DNA from: a virus
Reading direction: 5' to 3' (one strand)
DNA length: 64,000 bases
Virus record (IMG/VR): IMGVR_UViG_3300035698_011322
Location: 10,658-74,657 of that record
The position numbers and the translations under genes were made by a program. Each line of letters starts with the position of its first letter. Position 1 is the first letter of the stretch. The notes under the pieces are model-generated. The model did no database searches and was not told where the DNA came from. It saw only the letters and a program-made list of their open reading frames with translations. Of the stretch, positions 30,771 to 60,100 are shown one piece after another.

Positions 30771-30833
30771 TTTACATTTTATCTCAAAAAAGTTATAATA
30801 AATCTTAGTCAAAGTAAGAAAGTTATATAAATA
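30771..30833 (+). promoter_or_regulatory. dual early (TTTACA-N17-TATAAT) + late (TATAAATA) promoter of tRNA array 1
   Basis: 30771-30799 and 30826-30833; paralogous to 34487-34549. Confidence 0.8.
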
Positions 30834-30941
30834 GAATTGAGGATAACGTTGAAGAATATTTTAGTCAAATATTGCAAAATCTGGATAAAGTGGACTATAA
30901 AACAAACTCCAGTATATTCTCTTCAATAAAAGGAAAATATT

Positions 30942-31064
30942 ATGTCAAGAACAACTAAAAAAACTACTACAAGGGGCAATGATTATCGATATATAGTCGA
31001 ACATCATATTTATGCAATCGTACCGACAACGCATATTATCCCAACAGAGGAACATAATATGTAA
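30942..31064 (+). CDS. attenuator leader peptide 1 (40 aa)
   Basis: MSRTTKKTTTRGNDYRYIVEHHIYAIVPTTHIIPTEEHNM; SD AAGGA; stop 3 nt before antiterminator arm. Confidence 0.75.
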   Translation: MSRTTKKTTTRGNDYRYIVEHHIYAIVPTTHIIPTEEHNM

Positions 31065-31067
31065 GTA

Positions 31068-31136
31068 TTAGCTGAAATATAAGTAATAACCTAAAGGGTT
31101 TCAGCTAAGTTAAAAGTTGAAATCCTTTTTTAGTTT
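31068..31136 (+). terminator. alternative antiterminator/terminator switch 1
   Basis: 31068-78 pairs with 31098-108; 31093-106 pairs with 31115-128, followed by a U-run. Confidence 0.8.
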
Positions 31137-31138
31137 AT

Positions 31139-31212
31139 GGTTCCATCGTCTAATGGTAGGACACCAGACTTTCGATCTGAGAATCGGGGTTCGATCCCCC
31201 GTGGAATCGCCA
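31139..31212 (+). tRNA. tRNA-Glu(TTC)
   Basis: Cloverleaf, loop CTTTCGA, GTTCGA, CCA. Confidence 0.85.
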
Positions 31213-31261
31213 AATTCACCCCGCGAAGAGGGTGTTGAAATAATATCTTCGACAAACATAT

Positions 31262-31336
31262 CGCCGAGAAGGCTTGGGGTAAGCCCCTGGTTTTGGGTAC
31301 CAGTAGCTGTGAGTTCAACTCTCACCTCGGCGACCA
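31262..31336 (+). tRNA. tRNA-Pro(TGG)
   Basis: C1-G72, loop TTTGGGT, CCA. Confidence 0.8.
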
Positions 31337-31344
31337 ATTTTTAT

Positions 31345-31421
31345 GGTGGTTGTGGCGAATTGGTAAACGCGATCGGTTGTGGCCCGATTATTAGTGGGAT
31401 CGTTACCCACCAATCACCCCA
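31345..31421 (+). tRNA. tRNA-His(GTG)
   Basis: G-1/C73, loop TTGTGGC, CCA. Confidence 0.85.
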
Positions 31422-31497
31422 TTTTATGATCCATATATGAGGCATGTTTACAAAATAATTTGATAGTGTTATAATATAATCTTGAAAGGAAAGAATA

Positions 31498-31812
31498 ATG
31501 AATGAAAATTATGAAAAACAAATGAAAGTTAATGAATCCTTTGAAGAGTGTCTTTATAAATTAAAAGATAAAATACAAGTCACCAAATATAGTTATGAAA
31601 TGTATAATGCCTTGAGTAATATACAATGGCAGAATATAAAAGATCCAGAAAATATTTATTCATGTTCATGGCGATATGCAGGTGGTATGATTGCAGAAAT
31701 AAAAGGATATGGTGAAAACTATTTAGATTTTTATTGTTCTGGCAATGAAGGTATGGTAACAGAAGAGATTGAGAATGATCTTAATGAATTAGGTTGGAAA
31801 TCATTAGAATGA
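31498..31812 (+). CDS. conserved phage hypothetical protein
   Basis: YSCSWRYAGG.IA...YLDFYCSG.EG.VT.EI..DL..LGW. Confidence 0.7.
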   Translation: MNENYEKQMKVNESFEECLYKLKDKIQVTKYSYEMYNALSNIQWQNIKDPENIYSCSWRYAGGMIAEIKGYGENYLDFYCSGNEGMVTEEIENDLNELGWKSLE

Positions 31813-31839
31813 AATTTTGATATAATATGAAGTAAATGA

Positions 31840-31929
31840 GCGTCGGCCAATAGTGTAAGTGGAGAACACAAGTGGCTGTAACCCACCCGCTGAAAAGCTT
31901 TGGGGGTTCGACTCCCTCCCGGCGCACCA
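31840..31929 (+). tRNA. tRNA-Tyr(GTA)
   Basis: Loop CTGTAAC, variable arm, T arm, CCA; extra nucleotides before the D arm. Confidence 0.75.
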
Positions 31930-32158
31930 TTTATGATTCGTATATAGACCATAAGACACCTTTATGATCCATGTACGAATCACGTTTACAAAATAAAATA
32001 TCTATGTTATAGTGGGGTATATTAAATGGAATATTGTATTTTGAGAGAATCATTAAATGAGTGGACAACAGATACAATTTGTTCAAGTAAGAAATATAGA
32101 CCAATCAAGGGAATTAAGTATAAGTACACTTGTGATAACTATAAATTGGAGATAATAA

Positions 32159-32347
32159 ATGGAATACAATGATCTAGTAAAAAATGTTTCAAAGGATGCC
32201 GGTATTGATGAAGAAGAAGCAGAAAAATGTACGGAATCTTTCTTTAAATATTTTGAAGGTAAACCAGAAAGTGTACTGGAAGAATTCTTTGGTTATAATC
32301 TGATAGAAATAGATTTTAAATATGATGATATGAGATACAAATGGTAA
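32159..32347 (+). CDS. small acidic protein
   Basis: SD GGAG. Confidence 0.5.
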   Translation: MEYNDLVKNVSKDAGIDEEEAEKCTESFFKYFEGKPESVLEEFFGYNLIEIDFKYDDMRYKW

Positions 32348-32784
32348 TAGAAAATTATAAACCTTTTAGTGAACAGTTTACAGAGTGTCAAGAGAATGGT
32401 AATCTGATAAAGATCGATACATCGATGATGAAAGGATTATATGGTCATGATGTTGGTGAGATAAATGTCTGTATAAAATATAAATCAATTTGTCATTCTG
32501 GAGTATGTAGAGAAGAAAGGACAAAGATGAGAATTAAATGTACCGCAATACGATATGAAGGTAAAATATATGAAGGCAAACGTCATGCTGTAATTGGTTT
32601 AAAAATGGTACATGATGATATTTGTTCCGCACCTTATCCATTCGGTGATGATCAGGGTTTTGTAACAGAATGTGGAAAGTATGTTCACAGAGCACCGGCA
32701 CTTATGATTGCACTTAGATCAGGTCAAGTGAAAGAAGGCGAACATATACGACCAAATGAATTATATAGTGAAGATTTAAAGTAA
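32341..32784 (+). CDS. hypothetical protein
   Basis: C-terminal G.RH...QGFVT..G.YV.R..A...LYSEDL pattern. Confidence 0.6.
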   Translation: MVIENYKPFSEQFTECQENGNLIKIDTSMMKGLYGHDVGEINVCIKYKSICHSGVCREERTKMRIKCTAIRYEGKIYEGKRHAVIGLKMVHDDICSAPYPFGDDQGFVTECGKYVHRAPALMIALRSGQVKEGEHIRPNELYSEDLK

Positions 32785-32790
32785 GTAATA

Positions 32791-32885
32791 GAGGGGGATG
32801 TTCCGGTGAGCGGACTGTAAATTCGTTGCACGTTAAAATTTCATCGGCGGCTGTGTGAGTGGTTCGATTCCTCCATCCCTCACCA
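32791..32885 (+). tRNA. tRNA-Tyr(GTA)-like, D-armless
   Basis: Anticodon arm GCGGA-CTGTAAA-TTCGT, GTTCGATT loop, CCA; no D arm. Confidence 0.55.
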
Positions 32886-32895
32886 AAAAATATAA

Positions 32896-32982
32896 GCTCT
32901 TGTCGCATAGTGATCGATTGCACTGGTTTCGTAATCCAGCGGAATAATTCCCACGTAGGTTTAAATCCTATCAAGGGCTCCA
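32896..32982 (+). tRNA. tRNA-Thr(CGT) with long variable arm
   Basis: GCTCTTG/CAAGGGC acceptor, loop TTCGTAA, CCA. Confidence 0.75.
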
Positions 32983-33025
32983 GAAACAATAATAAAGATA
33001 AAGATAAAGGATTAAGGGTAATCAA

Positions 33026-33727
33026 ATGAAAATTATAATAGCAGGCGATGTTCATGGTCGATTCGGTGAACTAAACACACTTATCAGTAAACAAAAACCA
33101 AATCTTGTGATCTGTTGTGGTGACTTTGGTTACTGGCCTCACTTTGGTAAAGATGAGTTTAATAAAATCAAACCACAAGGCTCAAAGATACTGTGGTGTG
33201 ATGGGAACCATGAAGATCATTGGTCTTTGAGAGACAGAAAAACCGATGAATTCGTGAAAGACGTTCATTATATGCCAAGAGGATCAACATTTACATTAAG
33301 CGATGGTCGTGTCTTACTCTTTATGGGTGGCGGAGATTCAATTGATAAAAATTCTAGAACAACTGGTGTTGATTGGTTTCCAGAAGAAGTGATTGGACAA
33401 AAAGATATTGAGAACCTTCCTGACAAGAAAATTGATATTGTTATATCTCATACTTGCCCACTTGAGCTATTAGGTGAAATGAGAGGATATCGAGAAAAAA
33501 AAGTAGAACCTTCTAATCACGCTCTTAGCTACATTTTAGAAAAATATAATCCTCGCCAATGGTTTTATGGTCACTGGCATTCATATAAAGAAGTGTTACT
33601 GAGAAGCACAAAGTTTACTGCTCTATCATGTTTGCCTACTTACATGGGTCATGGTAGATGGTGGATTGAGTTAGATGAGAAAATATCGAGTAAAATATCA
33701 ACATTTAGTTTTAATGATAATTTTTAA
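33026..33727 (+). CDS. metallophosphoesterase
   Basis: GDVHG, GDFG, DGNHE, ISHTCP, YGHWH. Confidence 0.9.
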   Translation: MKIIIAGDVHGRFGELNTLISKQKPNLVICCGDFGYWPHFGKDEFNKIKPQGSKILWCDGNHEDHWSLRDRKTDEFVKDVHYMPRGSTFTLSDGRVLLFMGGGDSIDKNSRTTGVDWFPEEVIGQKDIENLPDKKIDIVISHTCPLELLGEMRGYREKKVEPSNHALSYILEKYNPRQWFYGHWHSYKEVLLRSTKFTALSCLPTYMGHGRWWIELDEKISSKISTFSFNDNF

Positions 33728-33943
33728 ATTTGGTTCGTAGTCGGAATTCTAACCAATAGAAGACGATGTTTCCAAGGGTGAAATTGATCAAAACAGGGAA
33801 GGGTGGTTCCTTTCAATGTCGTGATAAAGTAACCCAAAAACATAATATTGTAACATAAAAAGTTAATGTTGACCAGAGCGCGCACTAAATCAGTTAGTGC
33901 GCGCTGTGGTTTACATTAAGTATATAGAAAGGAGAAAGTAACA

Positions 33944-33990
33944 ATGATTTATCTATCCAATACCTTCTGATGTAACTTAACATTAGGAGG
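33944..33990 (+). promoter_or_regulatory. uORF MIYLSNTF overlapping an SD-sequestering hairpin
   Basis: 33963-73 pairs with 33980-90, which contains AGGAGG. Confidence 0.6.
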
Positions 33991-33997
33991 CATACAA

Positions 33998-34330
33998 ATG
34001 AAACATGGCGATATTATTCAAGAAGCAGATTGGCTACATTGGTGGCCTAAGTGGAAAAGATATCCACGTTTACAATACAGATTTAGATACGATCCTGTAC
34101 CATTATATATCAATAACTATCATAGAGGTTGTTGGTGTAAAAGACCACATCACATGAATGAAGAAAAACAATTCTATGCATGTGATCCAAAACTAGTAAG
34201 AGGAAAAAGACATCCAAGACACCTTCCAGATCCTTGGGATGATCACAAAAGAAGTGATCTAAGAGACAAAAGATCATGGAAAAAAGGATATAGAGTTCGT
34301 AAACAATGGATGAAACATATAGCCAGTTAG
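33998..34330 (+). CDS. basic Arg/Trp-rich protein (LPDPWDD...SWK...KQW)
   Basis: Strong SD; stop codon overlaps tRNA-Ile. Confidence 0.7.
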   Translation: MKHGDIIQEADWLHWWPKWKRYPRLQYRFRYDPVPLYINNYHRGCWCKRPHHMNEEKQFYACDPKLVRGKRHPRHLPDPWDDHKRSDLRDKRSWKKGYRVRKQWMKHIAS

Positions 34331-34394
34331 CTCAACGGAAGAGCCCGCGATCGATAATCGCGTGATAAAAGTTCAATTCTTTTACTGGCTACCA
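34321..34394 (+). tRNA. tRNA-Ile(GAT)
   Basis: Cloverleaf, loop TCGATAA, CCA. Confidence 0.8.
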
Positions 34395-34399
34395 AATTT

Positions 34400-34473
34400 A
34401 GCCCTATAATAGAATGGTAGAATATTTCTTTTACAAGGAAATTAACTTGGTTCGATTCCAAGTGGGGCTACCA
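34400..34473 (+). tRNA. tRNA-Val(TAC)
   Basis: Loop TTTACAA, GGTTCGATTCC, CCA. Confidence 0.75.
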
Positions 34474-34486
34474 AAATAAAAAGTAG

Positions 34487-34549
34487 TTTACAATTATTTC
34501 AAAAAAAGTTATAATAAATGTAATTGAAGTTGAGAAAGTTATATAAATA
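34487..34549 (+). promoter_or_regulatory. dual early + late promoter of tRNA array 2
   Basis: TTTACA 34487-92, TATAAT 34510-15, TATAAATA 34542-49. Confidence 0.8.
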
Positions 34550-34563
34550 GAAAGTAGGAGTAA

Positions 34564-34677
34564 ATGATGATGGCGAGAAAAATTAATAGGCAAAAACAGA
34601 ATAATAGATGTTTATCGACAGGCATACTTGCGTTCTCCTCATCATTTTTGAATTGGGCAGGAGATAAGTGCCTATGA
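34564..34677 (+). CDS. attenuator leader peptide 2 (up to 37 aa)
   Basis: MMMARKINRQKQNNRCLSTGILAFSSSFLNWAGDKCL; SD AGGAG; stop 2 nt before antiterminator arm. Confidence 0.75.
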   Translation: MMMARKINRQKQNNRCLSTGILAFSSSFLNWAGDKCL

Positions 34678-34679
34678 TC

Positions 34680-34751
34680 TAGCTGAAACATAAAGTAATA
34701 TTTTAAGGGGGTTTCAGCTAAAAAGTTAAAGTTGTAACCCCTTTTTAGTTT
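34680..34751 (+). terminator. alternative antiterminator/terminator switch 2
   Basis: 34680-89 pairs with 34711-20; 34705-19 pairs with 34730-44, followed by a U-run. Confidence 0.8.
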
Positions 34752-34755
34752 ATTC

Positions 34756-34830
34756 GGATATGTCGTATAAAGGGAATTATACTTGACTCTTAATCAAGAT
34801 GATGTTGGTTCAAATCAAATCGTACCATCA
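34756..34830 (+). tRNA. tRNA-Lys(CTT)-like, degenerate acceptor stem
   Basis: CTTGA-CTCTTAA-TCAAG arm and GGTTCAAATC loop; poor acceptor pairing. Confidence 0.5.
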
Positions 34831-34854
34831 AACAATAGAAAGGAAAATATTAAA

Positions 34855-35496
34855 ATGAACACATATCATAAAATCCAAACGGTATTTTTAAGAGATCCTA
34901 AAACTAAGTTCAAAACACTTTTAGAAGGTCAGTTTGCTAAATTTGAGTTTGAATATCTCGCAGAACTTATGTGGGCATGGACAGAAAAAGTTGATGGTAC
35001 TAATATTCGCGTACAGTATGATAGTGATGAAAAGAGCCTTAACTTTAATGGCAAGACAGATAGGGCTCAGTTACAGGCAACTCTTTTCGAGTACCTAACA
35101 GAAACCTTTACACCAAAGAAACAACTTTTTATGGATACATTTGATAAAGAGAATGTTAAAGTATGTTTATACGGTGAGGGTTATGGCCCCAGAATTCAAA
35201 AAGGTGGTGGCCTGTATCGTAAAGATCAGAGTTTTGTATTGTTCGATGTAAAGATCAATGATTGGTGGTTAAAACGTGGTGATGTAGAAAATATCGGACA
35301 TAAGTTTGGTATTGATGTTGTACCAATCATTCGCCATGGTAATCTTTATGAAATGGTCGAGTTTGTTAGAAATGGTTTTAATTCACAATGGGGAGATTTT
35401 CTAGCAGAAGGTATTGTTGCAAGACCATTCGTGGATTTGAGAGCAAGAAGTGGTGAAAGAATCATTACTAAACTAAAATGTAAAGATTTTGTATAA
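34855..35496 (+). CDS. RNA ligase (Rnl2-like nucleotidyltransferase)
   Basis: YHKI, TEKVDGTN, LYGEGYG, LFDV, AEGIV.RP, ITKLK. Confidence 0.85.
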   Translation: MNTYHKIQTVFLRDPKTKFKTLLEGQFAKFEFEYLAELMWAWTEKVDGTNIRVQYDSDEKSLNFNGKTDRAQLQATLFEYLTETFTPKKQLFMDTFDKENVKVCLYGEGYGPRIQKGGGLYRKDQSFVLFDVKINDWWLKRGDVENIGHKFGIDVVPIIRHGNLYEMVEFVRNGFNSQWGDFLAEGIVARPFVDLRARSGERIITKLKCKDFV

Positions 35497-35588
35497 AATG
35501 AATATTGTGGATTAGAGAAGTGGCCTATATAGGAGGGTTCGAATCCTTCAGATAGGTGGGGGTGATCGATTTCCAACCCGCCATATAA

Positions 35589-35661
35589 GGGTTTGTAGTT
35601 CAATGGTAGAACATTCGGTTCTTACCCGAAAAATTAGGTTTCGATACCTACGAACCCACCA
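35589..35661 (+). tRNA. tRNA-Lys(CTT)
   Basis: Cloverleaf, loop TTCTTAC, CCA. Confidence 0.7.
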
Positions 35662-35683
35662 TACAATAGAAAGGAGTATTAAA

Positions 35684-36382
35684 ATGGAAAAGTTAACTAA
35701 TTACCCAAAAACATATTGCCCCTTTATAAGAAAAACATTTGATGTTAATAAAGATCAATGGAAAAAATATGGTCGAAAACTTCAACTACGTGAGCCTAAT
35801 GTTTATCTTGCAGTGAATGAGATTAATCCTGGTTATGAATGGGTTCTTGATGATCCTGATACGTTTGCAGTTGAAAAACTTGATGGTACAAATGTTAAAC
35901 TCAAAACAGAAAATGGTAGATTAATTGCTCTTCAAAATAGATTGAATATCATTGATCCACTTCAAATAGTAAAAGGTAAGGCATTTATTCTCGAAGGCGT
36001 TTTTCAAGCAATTGGGAAGGGTTATGTTGAGAAAGATGGGGAACAATCAGGCGAAGTTATTGGAACAAAACTTCAAGGCAATCCATATGAACTCAATAAT
36101 ACACATCTATGGTATCCTTTTGAAAAGTCTATAAAGCATTTAAAATACAAGTCTTTTTTTAATCATGATAGAACTTTTGATAATTGGAGTTCATGGTTCA
36201 AAGATTACTTATTTTCCCTCTTTGCAATGAAAAGAGGTAACAAGGATATTATGGCAGAAGGTGTAATATTTTATAATCTAAAAAGAAAAGCCGAAGGTAA
36301 AATATATAGAGCAAAACTTAGAAGAGACATGTTTGAATGGTATTATAGTGATAAGATTGATATTTACAATTATCATGGGTAA
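35684..36382 (+). CDS. second RNA-ligase-like nucleotidyltransferase
   Basis: EKLDGTN, GEVIG.K.QGNPY, AEGVIF, AKLRRDMF. Confidence 0.75.
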   Translation: MEKLTNYPKTYCPFIRKTFDVNKDQWKKYGRKLQLREPNVYLAVNEINPGYEWVLDDPDTFAVEKLDGTNVKLKTENGRLIALQNRLNIIDPLQIVKGKAFILEGVFQAIGKGYVEKDGEQSGEVIGTKLQGNPYELNNTHLWYPFEKSIKHLKYKSFFNHDRTFDNWSSWFKDYLFSLFAMKRGNKDIMAEGVIFYNLKRKAEGKIYRAKLRRDMFEWYYSDKIDIYNYHG

Positions 36383-36402
36383 TGATATTATAAAATAAAT
36401 GA

Positions 36403-36491
36403 TGCGGGTTAGAGTAGCCAGGTCAACTCACTAGTCTCATAAGCTAGAGCTCTTAACGAGCACGGGGGTTCGAGTCCCCCACCCGCTACCA
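36403..36491 (+). tRNA. tRNA-Met(CAT), 1:72 mismatch, long variable arm
   Basis: Loop CTCATAA, T arm, CCA. Confidence 0.75.
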
Positions 36492-36724
36492 AAAAAGATA
36501 AACGAGTTTGACTCATGTTTATAGTGTTCTAGACACCATTTAAAAATAGTTGGTTTGTGCTCAAAGAATATCAATTATGGCATATTCATTGTAGTATACT
36601 GAGTGAAAGCCTCAGGACTCGTTTGTTGATAAAAAAGTAGTGAGAATGTATAATAAAGATTACGTTGTGAACACGAACGTTATGTGGTAAAACATGGTTT
36701 TGTATAGGTCCTGGAGTGCCCTAA

Positions 36725-36801
36725 GCCCTTGTAGCTGAACTGGATCAGCACGAAACTTCTAATTTCGTTCTATGTGGGTTCGAATCCCATCAAGGGTTCC
36801 A
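36725..36801 (+). tRNA. tRNA-Arg(TCT)
   Basis: Loop CTTCTAA, cloverleaf, CCA. Confidence 0.85.
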
Positions 36802-36809
36802 AAAAATAC

Positions 36810-36887
36810 GGTCTGTTGGAAGTAGGTGGTGAACTTCGTGAGACTGTCAATCTCAAGTAGCGGGTTCGATTCCCGTACAGACCGCCA
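36810..36887 (+). tRNA. tRNA-Asp(GTC)
   Basis: Loop CTGTCAA, G73-CCA. Confidence 0.9.
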
Positions 36888-37063
36888 AAGAAATGGTATC
36901 ATAAGTTAATACCATAGAAGAAGATTATAAGTTAAAATCTATTCCAGAATGGTGTCCTTTAGAAAATGCAGAAGAGTATCATTTACATGGACGTATAGAT
37001 CATCCATTTTAATAGAATGAGGAAGGCGCCGTCAACAGTGACAAACAATATAAATTAATCTTA

Positions 37064-37149
37064 GGAAGAAATCCGGTTGGATGAGGACGCAGTCTTGAAA
37101 ACTGTTGGGTGTAAAAGCTTTGGGGGTTCGAATCCCTCTTCTTCCGCCA
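37064..37149 (+). tRNA. tRNA-Ser(TGA)
   Basis: Loop CTTGAAA, variable arm, G73-CCA. Confidence 0.85.
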
Positions 37150-37196
37150 TTAAAGAGTTTTGATGATTTTTATACATTTTGAACTAAATTATTATT

Positions 37197-37262
37197 GCGG
37201 CCTGAGCTAGTGTGGTCATATCGTTCGGTTTAAACCCGGAAGAATTCAGAGAGGTCGCGCCA
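37197..37262 (+). pseudogene. tRNA remnant lacking a T arm (loop TTTAAAC)
   Basis: Acceptor GCGGCCT/AGGTCGC + CCA; anticodon arm present; T arm missing. Confidence 0.55.
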
Positions 37263-37448
37263 AAATTAAAGGAGTATGATAGTGAGTAAAACAATAATAA
37301 TGGCAGAAGAATTTGGTATTTATTGGTCTAAAGATGATCTAAAGAACCTAAGAGAACTGTTATACATAGGTTTGGGTGGTAATATTGGCGATGAAAGAAT
37401 AAATTATATAGGAATCGCGGTTATAGACAGAATAGAGGAGAGATTAAA

Positions 37449-37880
37449 ATGAACTTAATACCACTTGAAAAATGTGTAAAGGGCAGAGTATATAAACTCG
37501 ATTGCCGTAATTTTAATTATGGTGTGTATAATGGTAAATATGGCTTCATTGGTATTCGCCGCAAGTTCAATGATAGATTTCTATTTACTGAATATCACAA
37601 AGATATAGATCCCCACTATGGTACTGTTATAAGAATGGAAGACATGGGTATCGATGTTCCGGATGATATAGAACTAAAAGAAGACGAGCCAACCATTGAT
37701 AGAAATACTGGCAGACACGTGTGGTTCGATAAACCAGTTGTTGATGGTGGTCGAGGCTGGGTATACAAAGATACTGATGAAAATAGTTATGATATAAAAC
37801 CAGTCTCTCATGTGAATAGAAAATTGTTTAAATTCTTGGATGATATGTGGGAGGATTTTAATTATACAGAAGTAGAGTAA
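37449..37880 (+). CDS. hypothetical protein
   Basis: SD GAGGAG; 143 aa. Confidence 0.65.
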   Translation: MNLIPLEKCVKGRVYKLDCRNFNYGVYNGKYGFIGIRRKFNDRFLFTEYHKDIDPHYGTVIRMEDMGIDVPDDIELKEDEPTIDRNTGRHVWFDKPVVDGGRGWVYKDTDENSYDIKPVSHVNRKLFKFLDDMWEDFNYTEVE

Positions 37881-37885
37881 TATAA

Positions 37886-37970
37886 GCACCCAGCCCTTAA
37901 TCTGAGAGGGACTCAGGCAAGTCTCCAAAGCTTGTGGCATAAAGGCGTTCAACTCGTCCTGGGTGTGCCA
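37886..37970 (+). tRNA. tRNA-Trp(CCA), atypical D region
   Basis: Loop CTCCAAA, G73-CCA. Confidence 0.65.
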
Positions 37971-37980
37971 AAATAAATAT

Positions 37981-38056
37981 GGGGGCGTAGCCAAATCGGG
38001 AAGGCACTTGGTTTGCAACCAAGAGATTGAGGGATCGTTCCCCTCCGCCTCCACCA
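37981..38056 (+). tRNA. tRNA-Ala(TGC)
   Basis: G3:U70, loop TTTGCAA, CCA. Confidence 0.85.
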
Positions 38057-38133
38057 AATGATTTAATAGATAAAAAAACATCAATACTTTATGGTTGGAA
38101 AAGAGGTAGATCAAAAGGTAATTTTAATCCTAT

Positions 38134-38212
38134 ACCCTAGTATACCCTCTGGCTACGAACCAGTTGAAAGGTTAACGAACACATGTGGGTTTGAATCCCA
38201 TCTAGGGTTCCA
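38134..38212 (+). tRNA. tRNA-Arg(ACG)-like, D-armless
   Basis: ACCCTAG/CTAGGGT acceptor, CTGG-CTACGAA-CCAG arm, T arm, CCA; no D arm. Confidence 0.6.
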
Positions 38213-38216
38213 CTAA

Positions 38217-38293
38217 GGGCTGTGTTATCAGATGGTTTTCTGGTGACTGGTTGCAATCCAGTTTTTGAGGTTCAATTCCTCCGCGGCCCTCCA
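38217..38293 (+). tRNA. tRNA-Cys(GCA)
   Basis: Loop TTGCAAT, U73-CCA. Confidence 0.7.
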
Positions 38294-38345
38294 ACTTTAA
38301 AAAAAAGTAGTTTACAATAAATATGATTTGAGATATAATAGTTAA

Positions 38346-38575
38346 ATATGACATAGATAGTTCCTATAAAAATATTAATAAATAAGAAATACTATCCGTC
38401 ATATAATTAGTTATCAAGTGACATAAATGGTTCCTCTATAAAAACTGGAACCGGATGCTGGCGAGCCTTTGGTTCGTACCAGACCGGTTATTAAATTACC
38501 ATTCGTCATTTAAAATATTGGGCAAATGAAAGTTCCTATAAAACACACTTGATATGTATAATTACTTTCCGCCCA
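38346..38575 (+). ncRNA. array of three covarying bulged hairpins in the leader of the TerD-like gene
   Basis: Units at 38346-404, 38416-511 and 38519-575; promoter TTTACA-N17-TATAAT at 38311-39. Confidence 0.7.
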
Positions 38576-38591
38576 TAACAAATTAAAAGGA

Positions 38592-40502
38592 GTGAAAATG
38601 AAACGATCATTGTTAAGATTATTTAAAGCTGTTGAGATCGAATCCACACCTAAACATAAAGATGCCGAAGTTAGCCGTTATATCAATGGTATAACATTAA
38701 AGAGTGGTTTCGTTTTCTCTCCAGAGATTCATTATAATTGTCCTCAAAGCAAAATGATAGAGATGGCCAATGTAATAACTAATGAATTGGGTATCACTTC
38801 AGAACAAATGAATAATGCTTTCCATAAGTCATGGGATAAGGTTGCCAATGCTGATCTGTTATTGCTTCAATTAGAACAAGCAATTCATTATGCAACAACC
38901 TATGGTTATGAATCAATCGGTATATTCAAGAACAGTACTGTATTCATTCCAGATGAACAATTGGATGTACCTGGTTTAGAAAATGGTATTAAGTTAACTG
39001 TTATCAAAGGTATGACAAAGTATGATATGAGAGTTGCCTTGATGGACTTGCTTGATACGGGCATTGCATTGAAAGAAGATACAGTTGTTGATTGTGTTGT
39101 ATTGGGTAAATATCTTGAACTGTCAAATGATGAAATCAATAGTATCAATAATAAAGAAGTAAAGACTGCTCTTTTTGATGAACTAGGTGGTGTTCCAAAG
39201 AATCCAATTGAGTTCCTGAGATATGTTGTTTATAGAGTTACTGGTAAAACATTATTGATCAAAAATCAAGCACTTATTGCTCAAATCAAAGAAGGTAATT
39301 TGGATAGAGCACTTGATCCATTTAAAATGTATGATATTGGATATGGTATGAATCATTTGTCAGGAATCTTCAATAGATTCAAACCATTGTTCTTGGCTTT
39401 CAAGGCTCATAGGGAATTGAAGCCTGTTATAAACAAGTTGAGTAAACTTTCTAAGAAATATCATGAACCAATGAAGAGTGATTATTTAAATGATATTACA
39501 GCTATGATTAAGAATAGTATACACATTGATGTTCGTACTCTTCGAGACAAACTTAACAAAGCAAACGCTTTCAGAAAAATCAGATTGGCTTATGCTTTAA
39601 ACTATAGAACCAATGATGTTAGTTCAATCCTTTATAGAGTCAGAAATGGCAAGGGGTTTTCAACTGAATTTTCGTTTGATAATAAGAGAGTTGCCAAGAG
39701 AGCACTGAACATTGTATTGGATTCGATTGCCAAAGATCTTAAAAGAAATGTGGAAGGCAAGAAAATATATGTTCCATCTAATATTAGATATGCTCTGCCT
39801 GCAACTGAGAAACAATTTACAGGCAACTTCCCAACTGGCACAAGTGTAGTGGTTGATAGTGATATGATCTTTGGTATTCATTGGAATGATATTGGTGGAT
39901 ATAGAATTGATTTGGATCTATCATTAATTGATGTAACTGGATATAAATATGGCTGGGATAGCAATTATCGTAATGAAGATAAGAGTATTTTGTTTTCTGG
40001 TGATATGACTTCCGCTCCTGGGCCAATGGGTGCAACGGAGTTGTTCTATGTTAGAAATAATGTTGTTGGATCAAACATCTTGTCAGTTAATTATTACAAC
40101 TATATGGATGATGTTCCTGTTCCATTCAAGATCATTGTTGGTAAAGATAAAACAGATAAGTTCAGAAATAACTATGTACTCGATCCTAATAATGTAGTAA
40201 TGACGTCTTCATCAAAAATGAATGTTAAACAAAAGGTATTGGGTCTACTGAACACTACTAAAGATGAATGTAGATTTTACTTCACAGAGGTTGATATGGG
40301 TAACTCTATAACATCATCTTCTACGTATGATTATGTTACTCATGCTAGAAAGTATATGTTCGACTTCTATAAAAACAACATAGACCTTGATGTGATGCTA
40401 CTAATGGCGGGTGCTGAGTTTGTAGAAAATGTAGAAGATTGTGACATTGATCTTTCACCTGAGAATATTAAAAAGGATGATATAATTAATATGTTAGTGT
40501 AA
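38592..40502 (+). CDS. large helical protein with C-terminal TerD-like domain
   Basis: FGIHW...IDLDLS...W...FSGDMTSAP...GATE pattern. Confidence 0.65.
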   Translation: MKMKRSLLRLFKAVEIESTPKHKDAEVSRYINGITLKSGFVFSPEIHYNCPQSKMIEMANVITNELGITSEQMNNAFHKSWDKVANADLLLLQLEQAIHYATTYGYESIGIFKNSTVFIPDEQLDVPGLENGIKLTVIKGMTKYDMRVALMDLLDTGIALKEDTVVDCVVLGKYLELSNDEINSINNKEVKTALFDELGGVPKNPIEFLRYVVYRVTGKTLLIKNQALIAQIKEGNLDRALDPFKMYDIGYGMNHLSGIFNRFKPLFLAFKAHRELKPVINKLSKLSKKYHEPMKSDYLNDITAMIKNSIHIDVRTLRDKLNKANAFRKIRLAYALNYRTNDVSSILYRVRNGKGFSTEFSFDNKRVAKRALNIVLDSIAKDLKRNVEGKKIYVPSNIRYALPATEKQFTGNFPTGTSVVVDSDMIFGIHWNDIGGYRIDLDLSLIDVTGYKYGWDSNYRNEDKSILFSGDMTSAPGPMGATELFYVRNNVVGSNILSVNYYNYMDDVPVPFKIIVGKDKTDKFRNNYVLDPNNVVMTSSSKMNVKQKVLGLLNTTKDECRFYFTEVDMGNSITSSSTYDYVTHARKYMFDFYKNNIDLDVMLLMAGAEFVENVEDCDIDLSPENIKKDDIINMLV

Positions 40503-40511
40503 GGGAATCAA

Positions 40512-40595
40512 GCCACCATAGAGGAAATGGTCTACTCAACAGGTTTAGGCCCTGTGCCTTCGGGCGTCTCGGTTCGAATCCGAGTGGTGGTACCA
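40512..40595 (+). tRNA. tRNA-Leu(TAG)
   Basis: Loop TTTAGGC, variable arm, CCA. Confidence 0.9.
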
Positions 40596-40607
40596 GTTAA
40601 TAATTAA

Positions 40608-40694
40608 GCGGTTGTAGACTAATTGATAAGTCACCAGTCTTCCAAGCTGGCGTCAGAAATGACATTGTGAGTTTGAATCTCACCAGCCGCTCCA
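40608..40694 (+). tRNA. tRNA-Gly(TCC) with long variable arm
   Basis: GCGGTTG/CAGCCGC acceptor, loop CTTCCAA, U73-CCA. Confidence 0.8.
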
Positions 40695-40930
40695 ATAAAG
40701 GATTGGTGATTATGATGGACACAATAAAAGATAGAGCTAAAGAATTATTGAGACTAAGTAGAATAGAACTGAAAAGAAGATCAGAGTTACTTAAACTAAA
40801 GAATATAGAAGGGGCTGGTAAAATAAAACTAGCTGTTATGATCGCTGTGAAAGAATATATTGATGATCCAGACTAGTTTACATTTTATATACTATCTGAT
40901 ATACTATATACAAGTTAAAGAATTGTGTAT

Positions 40931-41123
40931 TTATAGGGAGAGAGTTGAGATTGGGGATGATAAACTCAACAGAGATATGGGCAAATCCGGATAAGCCCCA
41001 TATAGCATAAAGGTTAATTGCGAGAAAGAACTGTTCAATTCGAATATCGCGACATCCTGTAAAAAGTTATGCTTGTCTCAATAGAGGCAAGTATAACAAC
41101 AATATGTAACTCTCCCGCTATAA
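40931..41123 (+). ncRNA. putative ~190-nt multibranch RNA
   Basis: Closing stem GGGAGAGTT/AACTCTCCC plus internal hairpins; promoter at ~40877. Confidence 0.45.
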
Positions 41124-41134
41124 GTACATAATTT

Positions 41135-41212
41135 GCCGGAGTGGTGTAAATGGTAGCCACGCGAGGTTTAAGCCTTCGTGCCTGAGATGGTGTAGGGGGG
41201 TTTCCGGTATCA
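41135..41212 (+). pseudogene. tRNA-Leu(TAA) with damaged T arm
   Basis: D arm, loop TTTAAGC and variable arm intact; T loop missing. Confidence 0.6.
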
Positions 41213-41217
41213 TATAT

Positions 41218-41292
41218 CGCGGAGAGGATGCTGGTTTCCAACTAGGGCTCATATCCCTGGTCGCGTCGGTTCGATTCCGATCTCCGCTCCCA
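41218..41292 (+). tRNA. initiator-type tRNA-Met(CAT)
   Basis: C1 mismatch, GGG/CCC anticodon stem, loop CTCATAT. Confidence 0.75.
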
Positions 41293-41299
41293 AAAATAA

Positions 41300-41376
41300 T
41301 GGGGTATCGTCCAATTGGCAGGACAGCGGACTTTGAATCCGCTAATGATCTGGTTCGAATCCATCTACCCCAGCCA
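41300..41376 (+). tRNA. tRNA-Gln(TTG)
   Basis: U1-A72, loop CTTTGAA, CCA. Confidence 0.85.
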
Positions 41377-41387
41377 TAATACAGCAT

Positions 41388-41473
41388 GCCCGCATAGACG
41401 AAATGTGGCATAGTCACTAGTTTCAAACACTAGGCCCTCGGGCGTGTAGGTTCGACCCCTACTGCGGGTACCA
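41388..41473 (+). tRNA. tRNA-Leu(CAA)
   Basis: Loop TTCAAAC, variable arm, CCA. Confidence 0.85.
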
Positions 41474-41487
41474 GAAAGGAAAAACAA

Positions 41488-41718
41488 ATGAAACTATGTA
41501 TAGATTGTAGATATTATGATAGTGTTAAAGGTATATCTTTATTCTTTAAAACAAAGGCATGCATACATCCAAAGAATATTGAAATAAATCCAGTCACTGG
41601 TGATATAGAGTATGGATCCACACCAAGTCATTTAAGAAAATTTGTTGATGCTTATTGTGATAAAGATGCTTATTGTGATAAAGATGGTAAGTGGTTTAAG
41701 AAAAGAGTGAAGAAATAA
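41488..41718 (+). CDS. small Cys-rich protein
   Basis: MKLCIDC..Y; short internal duplication DAYCDK. Confidence 0.6.
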   Translation: MKLCIDCRYYDSVKGISLFFKTKACIHPKNIEINPVTGDIEYGSTPSHLRKFVDAYCDKDAYCDKDGKWFKKRVKK

Positions 41719-41721
41719 TAT

Positions 41722-41796
41722 AGTCTAGTAGCTCAATGGTAGAGCATTCAACTTATAATTGAAAAACGTAAGGTTCGATTCCTTTCTAGACTACCA
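41722..41796 (+). tRNA. tRNA-Ile(TAT)
   Basis: Cloverleaf, loop CTTATAA, A73-CCA. Confidence 0.8.
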
Positions 41797-42320: not shown

Positions 42321-42358
42321 AAATCGGCATAGGATTTTCATTCTATGCTGATTTTTTT
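42321..42358 (+). terminator. intrinsic terminator
   Basis: AAATCGGCATAG / CTATGCTGATTT followed by a T-run. Confidence 0.75.
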
Positions 42359-57108: not shown

Positions 57109-60100
57109 ATGAAGGAAAATAACAATTATGGTTTAAGTGAAAATGCAGTAAAAATCTTTAATGATCTTTATTGTTTTCAACATGAATCGATAGAAGATGC
57201 GTTTAAAAGAGTTGCAAAAGAATTTGTAGCAAAGGAAGAAGATTTTGATATAGCGTTTAATTTGTTATCTAGTGGATATTGGCGACCCAATACACCAACA
57301 TGGCTTAATGCAGGAACTAGTCATAAGATATTTTCAGGGTGTTTTGTAACTGGTCTTCGTGATTCAATGAATTCGATATATGAAGTGGCTGATACTGCTC
57401 GTAAGATTTTTCAACATGGCGCTGGTATTGGTATACCGATTGGAAACCTAAGAGAACAAGAGGCATGGATATATGAAAGTAATGCTGACATGCTCCCAAG
57501 AGGTAAAAGTTGTTTAACTGGTGATACCATTTTATTGAATGATAATGGATCTACGTCAATAGAATCACAAAAAATAACTATAAAATGGTTATATGATTTT
57601 TATCAAAATGTAAAAAATCCAAAATATATGGTTAGATCTATGCTAGATGATTTTGGAATTGGTAAAAATATAATTACAGATGTTATTTATAATGGGAAAA
57701 GACCAGTTTATAAAATTGAAACAAAAGATGGTTATAAAATAAAGGCAACATTAAATCACAGATTTTTATCAGAGAATGGTGAATGGAAAAGATTGGAAGA
57801 CTTTTCTTTAAAAGAAAAGATTGGTGTAAATGGAAAAACAAGACCAATTTCTGAATGTAAAAGATGTGGCAAGGTTAGATTATTAAGAGGGAATAGAAGT
57901 AAATATTCTGAATTATGTGAAAATTGTGTTGTTTCTACATTTTATGGCTGTTCTTTAAAAGGATCAAAAGAAGAATTTGAGAAAAGAAGTACGGCCAGAA
58001 AAGAATATAGAAATAGAGTAGAAATTAGGGAGTATTATTCTGAAATAAATTCTGGTGAAAATAATCCTATGTGGCGTGGTGATTTTGCTAATGAAACCAC
58101 AGCACGAAGTAGAAATAAAAATATTTATTTATGGAATAGAGAAAACAATATATGTGAGAGATGCAATGAAAATAAAAAAAGAATAGAAGTACATCATAAA
58201 GATGGTAATCCATATAATAATGAAATTAATAATTTAGAAGTTTTATGTATTCAATGTCATAATGATGAGCATAGAGAAAGAAGAGCAAAAGGTAACTATA
58301 GATTAACAAAAGAAGTATATTTTGATGAAATAATAAATATAGAATACATTGGTATTGATGATGTTTATGATATTAAAATGAAAGAACCTTATCATAATTT
58401 TATTGCTAATGGTTTTGTTTCTCATAATAGTGGGCCTATAACATTCATGAAATTATATGATGCTGTAGGTGAAACAACTAAAAGTGGTGGAAGAGTAAGG
58501 CGAGCCGCCATTCTTTGTTCTATGCCTATATGGCATCCAGATGTACTTGATTTTATTAAATGTAAAGAAGAGGATGGTAGGTTGTCAAGCATGAATATAT
58601 CTGTTTCTGTAACCGATAAGTTCATAGAGGCACTTGAAAGTAATATACCATTTGATCTTGTGACTCCTTATAATGGGAAAAAGGCTAGTGAAGTAAACCC
58701 ACAAGAAGTATGGGATATGATTTCTCTAATGTCATGGAAGACCGCTGATCCTGGTATATTCTTTATTGATACAGTCAATAAGTATAATCCACTATCATCT
58801 GATATTCTTATAGAGACAAGTAATCCATGTATTGTTGGTGATACAAAAATTATGACTGACAAGGGTGAAATTGAGATAAAAAGTCTTTTGATGGATATAT
58901 TTGATTATAAAATAGCAACATATAACATTGAAAGTAATGAAATAGAATGGGAAAATATCGTGTGGGGTGAAAAAACAAGAGAACATACTGATATTATAAG
59001 AATTGAGTTTGATGATGATAGTTTTATAGAATTGACACCAGATCATATGGTATATACTGAGAACAGAGGATATGTGAAAGCAGTTGAACTTAACAATGAA
59101 GATATCTTATATAAAAGCGCCACAATGGGAATGGAGATCTTGCAGATTGGAAAAAAAAGAATAAAAAGAGTTAAGGTAATAAAGAACCAAGATGTGTATG
59201 ATATAAAAACAGAAAGCAATCATAATTTTTTTGCTAACAGAACGTTAGTACATAATTGTGGTGAACAGTTCTTGATACCTAATAATTGTTGTAACTTATC
59301 AGCTATTAATATTAGTAAGTTTATTAAAGATGATGATTATGATTGGGAAAGTTTGTATAAATGTGCTTTTGATATAATGGGTTTAATGGATAACGTTATT
59401 GATGTGATGGATTATCCGGATGATAAGTTCAAAGAGAATTCTATAAAATATAGACCCGTGGGTATAGGTATCATGAGCCTTGCTGATTCACTTTTTGAAC
59501 TTGGATATCGATATGATGGGCCTGAGGGTAGAAAATTTGCTGGTAAGATTATGAGAACAATAACAACTGCATGTGTTCATAAAAGCACTTTATTAGCAAA
59601 AGAGCGTGGTACATTCCATAACTATGACAAGTACAGAGAAAAAGTAGAAGGAATAATAGAACAACATATAGGTCTGAATGATTCTGATGTAACACCTTCC
59701 ACAGAAGTAGTGTGGGATTTGGTTAAAGAGTATGGTCTTAGAAATGTTCAGTTTACTACTTGTATGCCTACGGGTTGTTTAACAGAAAACACAATGATAT
59801 CATCTAAAAATTCTGGTGTTAATTATATAAAGAATGGTGATAGATGTATAGATGAAAAAACAAAATCCGATAATGGCGATTATACATATAAAAATCATTA
59901 TGATCAAGGTATACAGCCAGTAAAGAAAATAGTTACAAAAAAAGGATATGAAATAGAAGGTACATATCATCATAAATTAAGAGTTTTAGAAAATCATGAA
60001 TATATATGGAAAAGAATAGATGATATTGAAATTGGTGATAATATTATTATGAGGAAAAATTTTATTCATAGTGATGTTTTATCAAATGAATTTTTTAATG

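What the first reader, a model, noticed from the sequence alone, without database searches (positions are those of the whole stretch)
30771..41796. Codon-matched ribosome attenuators gating two phage tRNA arrays (candidate tRNA-depletion sensor)
Seen: two paralogous leaders (30771-31136 and 34487-34751), each with an early plus late promoter, an SD-led peptide ORF, and mutually exclusive antiterminator/terminator helices ending 2-4 nt before the first tRNA. The peptides are unrelated but partition the code: leader 1 lacks C,F,L,Q,W and leader 2 lacks E,H,P,V,Y. Array 1 holds Glu, Pro, His, Tyr, Thr, Ile(GAT) and Val. Array 2 holds Lys, Met, Arg, Asp, Ser, Trp, Ala, Cys, Leu, Gly, Gln and Ile(TAT). 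Established: in trp/his/ilv-type attenuation a ribosome reaching the leader stop masks the antiterminator arm, and anti-phage anticodon nucleases such as PrrC destroy host tRNAs. Inference: the phage samples most of the host tRNA pool and transcribes the matching replacement set only when ribosomes stall. I know of no description of attenuator-controlled phage tRNA arrays. Caveats: internal early promoters (31447, ~31986, 38311, ~40877) could bypass the control for distal tRNAs, and no intact Asn or Phe tRNA was found although leader 2 has N and F codons.
Basis: partly seen in the sequence, partly recalled or inferred. Interest (0 to 1): 0.95.

Follow-up and report, generated by a model that had tools for sequence, protein, structure and literature searches.

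The report
Leader-peptide attenuators before phage tRNA clusters
A T4-like phage from a salt lake places two trp-operon-style switches (short peptide gene plus competing RNA hairpins) in front of its two tRNA gene clusters, and each peptide uses the codons that its own cluster's tRNAs read, which suggests the phage makes tRNAs on demand; this control has not been described for tRNA genes.

Summary
Both leaders have a TTTACA-17-TATAAT promoter, a TATAAATAG box and a ribosome-binding site before a 40- or 37-codon ORF. Each ORF stops 2-3 nt before a 10-bp hairpin. The 3' arm of that hairpin is also the 5' arm of a 14-bp intrinsic terminator abutting the first tRNA.

- **Conservation:** a metagenome relative (L066) carries an orthologous leader. 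One base changes in all three competing arms (G>A, C>T, G>A), so both helices are kept.
- **Codon match:** of 77,520 ways to split the 20 tRNA species 7/13, the real split is the single best match to the two peptides. The signal vanishes out of frame, inverts when the leaders are swapped, and is absent from ordinary ORFs inside the arrays.
- **Asn and Phe:** L066's array holds the Asn and Phe tRNAs that the window lacks, which explains those codons in leader 2.

Best reading (about 0.62): ribosome-mediated attenuation giving demand-driven read-through into tRNA and RNA-repair genes.

Weak points: no RNA data and only three or four family members. Six internal promoters bypass the control. Thr and Lys match only at amino-acid level. 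No pause hairpin was found. The anti-defence "depletion sensor" idea remains speculative.

The parts
30771..30799 (+). Leader 1 early-type promoter (TTTACA-17-TATAAT)
   Evidence: 11 of 12 consensus matches. The block is near-identical in leader 2 and in L066.
30826..30833 (+). Leader 1 TATAAATA box (T4-late-promoter-like)
   Evidence: It lies in a 20-nt block shared with leader 2 and is also present in L066. Its function is inferred.
30942..31064 (+). Leader ORF 1, 40 codons, preceded by AAGGA. 26 of 40 residues belong to the array-1 amino acids E, P, H, Y, T, V, I(ATY).
31068..31077 (+). Arm 1 (5' arm of the antiterminator), starting 3 nt after the stop codon
31099..31108 (+). Arm 2, shared by the antiterminator (3' arm) and the terminator (5' arm)
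31093..31138 (+). Intrinsic terminator 1: 14-bp stem at 31093-31128 plus a U-rich tail reaching the tRNA
31139..31421 (+). tRNA-Glu(TTC), Pro(TGG), His(GTG): the genes gated directly by leader 1
31447..31475 (+). Internal early-type promoter that bypasses attenuator 1. Another lies at 31985-32013.
31842..32979 (+). Weak Tyr(GTA)-like tRNAs (31842-31928 and 32792-32882) and tRNA-Thr(CGT) at 32896-32979 with a long variable arm
33026..33727 (+). Calcineurin-like metallophosphoesterase gene inside array 1
   Evidence: PF00149, E=1.1e-18.
34321..34473 (+). tRNA-Ile(GAT) and tRNA-Val(TAC), the end of array 1
34487..34549 (+). Leader 2 early-type promoter (34487-34515) and TATAAATA box (34542-34549)
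34564..34677 (+). Leader ORF 2, 37 codons, preceded by AGGAG. 29 of 37 residues belong to array-2 amino acids and only 2 to array-1. Homologues: L066:428-538 and P0122.
34680..34689 (+). Arm 1 of leader 2, starting 2 nt after the stop codon
34706..34755 (+). Terminator 2 (stem 34706-34743, which includes arm 2 at 34711-34720) plus a U-rich tail
34756..34827 (+). Degenerate tRNA-Lys(CTT)-like gene directly after terminator 2
   Evidence: 38.7 bits; imperfect acceptor stem.
34855..35496 (+). RNA ligase gene (PF09414), the first protein gene behind attenuator 2
35589..41796 (+). Rest of array 2: Lys, Met, Arg, Asp, Ser, (Trp), Ala, Cys, Leu, Gly, (Met), Gln, Leu, Ile(TAT). ORFs are interspersed, and internal promoters lie at 36363, 36626, 38311 and 40877.
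42321..42354 (+). Strong terminator closing the tRNA region. It is the only other terminator between 30.7 and 42.4 kb.

Best explanation
Each leader is a ribosome-mediated transcription attenuator of the trp/his/thr/ilv type, placed in front of tRNA genes.

Proposed steps:
- Transcripts start at the early-type promoter, and probably also at the late-type one.
- They carry a short ORF whose stop codon lies 2-3 nt before arm 1 (6-7 nt in L066).
- If the ORF is translated smoothly, the ribosome reaches the stop codon and covers arm 1. Arm 2 then pairs with arm 3, the 14-bp terminator forms, and transcription ends just before the first tRNA.
- If the ribosome stalls at a hungry codon inside the ORF, arm 1 stays free and pairs with arm 2 as soon as arm 2 is made. 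The terminator cannot form. RNA polymerase reads on into the tRNA genes and, behind leader 2, into the RNA ligase gene.

Because each ORF is built from the codons that its own array's tRNAs read, the pair would work as two complementary supply-and-demand sensors with negative feedback.

Shown here: the sequence anatomy, the alternative helices and their conservation with coordinated changes, and the frame-specific codon/tRNA match.

Inferred: that the ORFs are translated, that termination and read-through occur, and the direction of the response.
For: 1. Geometry. There is a ribosome-binding site and an ORF, and the stop codon sits 2-3 nt before arm 1 in two leaders whose peptides are unrelated.

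2. Competing helices. Arm 2 pairs perfectly with arm 1, and with arm 3 through one G-U pair. The nascent antiterminator folds at -9.4 to -12.5 kcal/mol. The terminator folds at -11.7 to -16.7 kcal/mol once arm 1 is masked.

3. Relative L066 (60% identity in the neighbouring 636-aa protein) has the same promoter, ORF and hairpin layout. Its arms read AGCTAAAA / TTTTAGCT / AGTTAAAA, against AGCTGAAA / TTTCAGCT / AGTTGAAA in the window. All three arms changed together. The antiterminator is 97% paired with 1 two-sided change, and the terminator 97.5% paired with 3 two-sided changes.

4. Partition tests. The real 7/12 or 7/13 split of tRNA species is the unique optimum among 50,388 splits at amino-acid level and 77,520 at strict-wobble codon level. 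With firm tRNAs only it is 1 of 18,564.

5. Controls.
- With both ORFs shifted out of frame the rank falls to 41,572-75,830 of 77,520, and swapping the leaders gives the worst rank.
- Ten ordinary ORFs inside the arrays show background composition (set 1 at 0.26-0.36), against 0.65 and 0.05 for the two leaders.
- Proteome windows as extreme as the leaders number 19 of 15,198 and 6 of 15,459.

6. L066's array begins with Asn(GTT) and Lys(TTT) and also holds Phe(GAA). This accounts for the N, F and AAA codons of the leader-2 family. The L066 peptide has 1 set-1 residue in 36, although its N-terminal half has diverged.

7. The L1, L2 and closing terminators are the only ones the scan and folding found between 30.7 and 42.4 kb. 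L2's stem has a U-U mismatch and was not flagged by the scan itself.

8. No Rfam family matches either leader.
Against: - There are no transcript or ribosome data.
- The family is tiny: two paralogues, one orthologue with DNA, and one peptide-only homologue. The covariation therefore rests on few events.
- The strict-wobble match is partial. The Thr tRNA (CGT) reads 1 of the 8 Thr codons in leader 1. Lys(CTT) reads 1 of the 3 Lys codons in leader 2. Overall, 18 of 40 and 23 of 37 codons are read by the leader's own array.
- Six internal early-type promoters mean that only Glu-Pro-His, and Lys-RNA ligase-Lys, depend strictly on read-through.
- No conserved pause or anti-antiterminator (1:2) hairpin was found. 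Untranslated transcripts would therefore read through, and it is unclear how the ribosome and polymerase stay in step.
- In L066 arm 1 starts 6-7 nt after the stop codon, at the edge of a ribosome's reach.
- The base of the terminator (AAAGG / CCUUU) lies in the antiterminator loop and could still pair.
- The C-terminal CLSxG...FLNWAG block is conserved at amino-acid level with synonymous changes. This hints at selection on the peptide itself.
- Homologue P0122 contains two Glu residues.
- More distant relatives with tRNA arrays lack the element.
Confidence: 0.62

Rival explanations
1. The ORFs are ordinary small phage protein genes, each ending in a compound intrinsic terminator. Leader 2 would be a basic, hydrophobic micro-protein. 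The tRNAs would be expressed from internal promoters or by leaky read-through. The codon match would be incidental or have some unrelated cause.
For: - The CLSxG...FLNWAG block is conserved at amino-acid level, with synonymous changes, across three homologues.
- P0122 contains Glu.
- Internal promoters exist.
- Strict-wobble matching is incomplete.
Against: - The real tRNA split is the unique optimum of 77,520, and the signal is frame-specific.
- Ordinary ORFs in the arrays show no such bias.
- Arm 1 co-varies with arm 2 although a plain terminator does not need it.
- The stop-to-arm-1 spacing is kept in leaders with unrelated peptides.
- There is no room for a promoter between the terminator and the first tRNA.
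Confidence: 0.15
2. The alternative hairpins form a switch that does not depend on ribosome position. A phage or host protein, or a tRNA, would bind the conserved antiterminator loop. Alternatively the hairpins guide RNase P or RNase E processing, or stabilise the leader mRNA after the tRNA is cut off. The ORF would be a passenger.
For: - The loop sequence AUAAGUAAUA...UAAAGG is fairly conserved.
- No pause hairpin was found.
- The terminator abuts an RNase P site.
- The terminator base could pair with the antiterminator loop as a pseudoknot (own reading).
Against: - There is no Rfam or T-box match.
- It does not explain the frame-specific codon/tRNA partition.
- It does not explain the conserved position of the stop codon.
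Confidence: 0.13
3. The terminators only insulate the tRNA arrays from upstream transcription. The similarity of the two leaders reflects a recent duplication of a promoter-terminator cassette and carries no regulatory meaning.
For: - The promoter and hairpin blocks of the two leaders are about 85-100% identical.
- Another phage (G003) also has a short ORF and a terminator right before its first tRNA.
Against: - The cassette is conserved in L066 with coordinated changes in all three arms.
- A duplication would not give two unrelated ORFs that split the code in the same way as the tRNA arrays.
Confidence: 0.07

Closest known systems
Leader-peptide transcription attenuators of amino-acid operons (trpL, hisL, thrL, ilvL/ivbL, leuL, pheL) and of pheST (pheM)
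   Same: A short ORF rich in codons tied to the regulated product, a stop codon a few nt before the antiterminator's 5' arm, a strand shared between antiterminator and intrinsic terminator, and multivalent sensing as in thrL and ilvL (textbook knowledge; anatomy).
   Different: - The regulated genes are tRNAs and RNA-repair enzymes in a phage, not biosynthetic or synthetase genes.
- There are no runs of one regulatory codon. Instead 13-15 amino acids are sampled.
- Two leaders split the code between them.
- No 1:2 pause or protector hairpin was found.
T-box riboswitches
   Same: They sense tRNA status and act through competing terminator and antiterminator helices.
   Different: T-boxes bind uncharged tRNA directly, have no leader ORF, and control synthetase, transport or biosynthetic genes. 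No T-box or other Rfam match was found here.
Phage tRNA clusters and tRNA repair (T4 tRNA region with Pnkp/Rnl1 against PrrC; T5-type tRNA arrays)
   Same: Many tRNA genes interspersed with small ORFs, promoters and RNA-repair genes. An RNA ligase and a phosphoesterase are present here.
   Different: Five full-text literature searches found no leader-peptide attenuator described for these clusters. No kinase was identified here. The comparison with T4 and T5 comes from my own knowledge and was not tested.

Membership tests
Ribosome-mediated (leader-peptide) transcription attenuator | Short ORF with a ribosome-binding site on the same transcript, upstream of the regulated genes | tested here: met
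   ORFs 30942-31064 and 34564-34677, preceded by AAGGA and AGGAG, lie downstream of TTTACA-17-TATAAT promoters. L066:428-538 has the same layout, though its AAGGA lies 11 nt from the ATG, longer than ideal.
Ribosome-mediated (leader-peptide) transcription attenuator | Intrinsic terminator between the leader ORF and the regulated genes | tested here: met
   14-bp stems followed by U tracts at 31093-31138 and 34706-34755. They are 97.5% paired with 3 two-sided changes across 3 sequences.
Ribosome-mediated (leader-peptide) transcription attenuator | An antiterminator helix that shares a strand with the terminator | tested here: met
   Arm 2 pairs with arm 1 or with arm 3. One column changes together with both of its partners in L066.
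Ribosome-mediated (leader-peptide) transcription attenuator | Leader enriched in codons cognate to the regulated product | tested here: met
   The real tRNA split is the unique best of 50,388 and of 77,520 partitions. The signal is frame-specific and absent from neighbouring ORFs. The strict-wobble match is incomplete for Thr and Lys.
Ribosome-mediated (leader-peptide) transcription attenuator | ORF end placed so that a terminating ribosome masks the antiterminator's 5' arm | tested here: inconclusive
   The gap is 3 nt in L1 and 2 nt in L2, which is trpL-like. It is 6-7 nt in L066, at the limit of a ribosome's footprint.
Ribosome-mediated (leader-peptide) transcription attenuator | A pause or anti-antiterminator (1:2) hairpin that keeps ribosome and polymerase in step | tested here: not met
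   The consensus fold of L2 and L066 from ORF to terminator gives no conserved helix that pairs the coding region with arm 1. This feature is typical of the family but not universal.
Ribosome-mediated (leader-peptide) transcription attenuator | Read-through rises when the cognate charged tRNA is scarce | not testable with these tools
   No RNA run holds the sequence. This needs experiments.
T-box riboswitch | Specifier loop, T-box motif, match to RF00230 | tested here: not met
   No Rfam hit in either leader at E<=1.
Phage tRNA-repair module (Pnkp + RNA ligase) | A 5'-kinase/3'-phosphatase together with an RNA ligase | tested here: inconclusive
   A PF09414 RNA ligase and a PF00149 metallophosphoesterase are present. 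No kinase domain was found and there are no PDB sequence matches.

The most novel reading that the evidence does not exclude
The two leaders form a split, whole-pool tRNA sensor used in the arms race with host defences. When a host anticodon nuclease or tRNA-depleting system stalls ribosomes on either leader, the phage switches on the matching replacement tRNAs. Behind leader 2 it also switches on an RNA ligase next to tRNA-Lys for repair. This would be an inducible counter-defence triggered by translation itself.
Probability: 0.25. Interest if true: 0.95.

Novelty: new variant of a known kind. Interest (0 to 1): 0.85.

Why it matters
Phage tRNA genes are usually treated as constitutive add-ons for codon usage or, more recently, as replacements for tRNAs destroyed by host defences. 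How their expression is controlled is essentially unknown.

A leader-peptide attenuator in front of tRNA genes would be the first case, as far as five literature searches and my own knowledge go, of tRNA transcription being fed back from decoding speed. It would extend classical attenuation from single-amino-acid sensing to sampling of most of the code by two complementary leaders.

The idea is directly testable with small reporter constructs. If it holds, it gives a compact natural sensor of tRNA availability. It also gives a way to ask whether phages detect anticodon-nuclease attack.

Tried and rejected
- **Exact and degenerate motif scans of IMG/VR**, and a peptide-profile scan, returned only chance hits and no further family member.
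- **RNA ligase as a synteny marker** failed. It is a widespread gene and its viral relatives have no nearby tRNAs.
- **Distant relatives** found through the 636-aa protein and ORF259 (L054-L065, L067-L145, L158, L159) carry tRNA arrays, but none except L066 has the leader.
- **Leader 1 peptide** has no homologue in the 5.8-billion-protein set. Leader 2 was too short for that tool. A profile search found one peptide homologue, P0122, but its DNA could not be fetched.
- **Sequencing runs:** no RNA holder is listed. Six salt-lake DNA runs hold parts of the stretch. Laying four of them gave only short identical contigs and no informative variants in the leaders.
- **The search of earlier findings** (relatives) returned nothing.
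- **PHROGs and Pfam** have no family for the leader peptides.
- **PDB sequence searches** for the RNA ligase, the phosphatase and ORF259 were empty.
- **A conserved 1:2 pause hairpin** was looked for and not found.
- **G003's short ORF plus terminator** before its tRNA array shows no clear alternative pairing (fold z-score -0.49).

Full report
**Context**

The window is part of a 74.7-kb IMG/VR viral contig that CheckV rates about 31% complete. It encodes a clamp loader, a gp32-like single-strand-binding protein, a primase, an NAD-dependent DNA ligase and an intein-bearing ribonucleotide reductase. Its promoters look like T4 early (GTTTACA-17-TATAAT) and T4 late (TATAAATA) promoters. The only sequencing runs that hold it are salt-lake metagenomes. 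No close relative exists in the phage GenBank set.

**Observation**

ARAGORN and Rfam find tRNAs on the + strand from 31139 to 41796.

- Behind leader 1: Glu(TTC), Pro(TGG), His(GTG), two weak Tyr(GTA)-like genes, Thr(CGT), Ile(GAT), Val(TAC).
- Behind leader 2: a degenerate Lys(CTT), then Lys(CTT), Met, Arg(TCT), Asp, Ser(TGA), a weak Trp, Ala, Cys, Leu(TAG), Gly(TCC), a weak Met, Gln, Leu(CAA), Ile(TAT).

The arrays are not compact. They are interspersed with ORFs, including a metallophosphoesterase (33026-33727) and an RNA ligase (34855-35496).

The two leaders align almost perfectly over the promoter block and the 3' hairpin block, but their ORFs are unrelated.

- Leader 1's ORF (30942-31064) stops 3 nt before TTAGCTGAAA (31068-31077).
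- Leader 2's ORF (34564-34677) stops 2 nt before TAGCTGAAAC (34680-34689).

In both, this arm 1 is complementary to arm 2 (TTTCAGCTAA at 31099-31108; GTTTCAGCTA at 34711-34720). Arm 2 is also the upper 5' half of a 14-bp terminator whose 3' half starts with AGTTGAAA or AGTTGTAA (arm 3). A U-rich tail follows and runs up to the first tRNA.

The nascent antiterminator folds at -9.9 and -12.5 kcal/mol in the two window leaders (L066: -9.4). With arm 1 masked, the terminators fold at -16.6 and -16.7 kcal/mol. Neither leader matches any Rfam family at E<=1.

The promoter/terminator scan flags L1's terminator and the strong one at 42321-42354 in the tRNA region; the other six terminator-like hits lie inside or beside tRNA genes. 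L2's terminator has a U-U mismatch and was identified by folding and alignment instead. Six further TTTACA-17-TATAAT-like promoters lie inside the arrays.

**Comparative evidence**

Motif scans of IMG/VR gave only chance matches.

Searching with the 636-aa protein that sits inside array 2 found about 100 metagenome and 12 viral relatives. The closest is L066, at 60% identity. It carries an orthologue of leader 2 at L066:361-612 with:

- the same early-type and TATAAATAG promoter elements;
- a 36-codon ORF homologous to leader 2 (41% identity, with a shared CLSxG...FLNWAG block);
- a stop codon 6-7 nt before arm 1;
- arms reading AGCTAAAA / TTTTAGCT / AGTTAAAA.

Against the window's AGCTGAAA / TTTCAGCT / AGTTGAAA, one position has changed in all three arms. 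Both the antiterminator pair and the terminator pair are therefore kept.

On the three-sequence alignment the antiterminator is 97% paired with one two-sided change. The terminator is 97.5% paired with three two-sided changes. With three sequences this is qualitative, but it is the pattern expected if both helices are used.

More distant relatives (45-50% identity) have tRNA arrays without this element, so the element is young or narrowly distributed. A profile search of 1.8 billion proteins found one more leader-2 homologue, P0122, at 75% identity.

**Codon match**

Leader 1 has 26 of 40 residues from the array-1 set (E, P, H, Y, T, V, Ile-ATY). Leader 2 has 2 of 37. The phage proteome background is 31%. 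Windows of the phage proteome as extreme as the leaders occur 19 times in 15,198 and 6 times in 15,459.

The cleaner test conditions on the peptides and permutes the tRNAs. Among all 50,388 splits at amino-acid level, and all 77,520 at strict-wobble codon level, the real split is the single best match. With only firmly called tRNAs it is 1 of 18,564.

Every array-1 tRNA reads more codons in leader 1 than in leader 2. Every array-2 tRNA reads at least as many in leader 2 as in leader 1.

Three controls support this.

- Shifting both ORFs out of frame removes the signal. Ranks fall to 41,572-75,830 of 77,520.
- Swapping the leaders gives the worst possible rank.
- Ten ordinary ORFs inside the two arrays have background composition.

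The signal therefore belongs to these two reading frames. It does not come from local base composition or from array-wide codon usage.

Its array starts with Asn(GTT) and Lys(TTT) and also contains Phe(GAA) and Arg(ACG). Its leader contains AAT, TTT, AAA and one CGC codon, and only one array-1-type codon. The window phage seems to have lost or degraded some tRNAs while the leader kept their codons.

**Mechanism**

The anatomy is that of a leader-peptide attenuator. A ribosome at the stop codon covers arm 1, so the terminator forms. A ribosome stalled earlier leaves arm 1 free, and arm 1 captures arm 2 before arm 3 is transcribed.

Because almost any codon of the ORF can cause the stall, each leader would report on its whole codon set. 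The output is negative feedback: more tRNA gives faster leader translation, which gives more termination.

This much is inference from sequence. I put it at about 0.62.

**Weaknesses**

- There are no RNA data.
- The family is very small.
- Internal promoters mean that only Glu-Pro-His, and Lys-RNA ligase-Lys, depend strictly on read-through.
- Thr(CGT) and Lys(CTT) read only 1 of 8 and 1 of 3 of their amino acids' codons in the leaders.
- No conserved pause or protector hairpin was found.
- The wider stop-to-arm-1 gap in L066 is marginal for ribosome masking.
- The terminator base could still pair with the antiterminator loop.
- The C-terminal block of the leader-2 family is conserved at amino-acid level with synonymous changes. 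The peptide itself may therefore matter.
- P0122 has two Glu residues.

**Anti-defence reading**

The RNA ligase directly behind leader 2, flanked by Lys tRNAs, and the metallophosphoesterase in array 1 recall the T4 Pnkp/Rnl1 repair of PrrC-cut tRNA-Lys (my own knowledge). They make a depletion-sensor role attractive, but nothing here tests it. I give it about 0.25.

**Novelty**

Five full-text searches found no description of attenuator-controlled tRNA genes, in phages or in cells. The mechanism class is classical. The new elements are the target (tRNA genes), the broad codon sampling and the two-leader partition. I rate it a new variant of a known kind, of high interest, resting on strong but purely computational evidence.

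Noticed in passing
window 36403-36491, 40608-40694, 32896-32979: tRNA-Met(CAT), tRNA-Gly(TCC) and tRNA-Thr(CGT) carry long, type-II-like variable arms (87-89 nt in total), which is unusual for these identities. The Met tRNA also has a 1:72 mismatch, as bacterial initiator tRNAs do.
   Followed up: partly
window 31842-31928, 32792-32882, 34756-34827, 37893-37970: Several tRNA-like genes are degenerate, with imperfect acceptor or anticodon stems and scores at or below threshold. No Asn or Phe tRNA is present, although the relative L066 has both. The tRNA set looks to be partly decaying.
   Followed up: partly
window 38592-40502: A 636-aa protein with no Pfam or PHROG family is conserved (40-60% identity) next to tRNA arrays in more than 100 metagenome and viral contigs. 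The ESM Atlas places it only among viral hypothetical proteins.
   Followed up: partly
window 33026-33727, 34855-35496, 35603-36382: A metallophosphoesterase, a PF09414 RNA ligase and a weakly RNA-ligase-like ORF lie among the tRNAs. Together they could be a tRNA-repair module. No kinase was seen.
   Followed up: partly
L051:4501-4670 (- strand; phage record G003, 115 kb): A distant relative with a compact 26-tRNA array has a 21-codon ORF and an AU-rich hairpin with a U tract directly before its first tRNA. No clear alternative pairing was seen. Short ORF plus terminator before phage tRNA arrays may be a wider theme.
   Followed up: partly
window 57109-61869: The ribonucleotide reductase large subunit ORF is 1,586 aa long and has HNH-endonuclease and recombinase-like insertions, most likely inteins.
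   Followed up: no
window 30849-30929: Leader 1 has about 90 extra nt between the TATAAATA box and the leader ORF. This stretch contains a possible 26-codon ORF with a TTG start after GAGGA. It has no counterpart in leader 2 or L066.
   Followed up: no
L052:1500-1660 (phage record G005): Upstream of G005's tRNA array the sequence shows a Bacteroidota-type promoter motif (TTTG...TAnnTTTG-like) rather than a sigma-70 type. This suggests that RNA-ligase relative infects a different host phylum.
   Followed up: no
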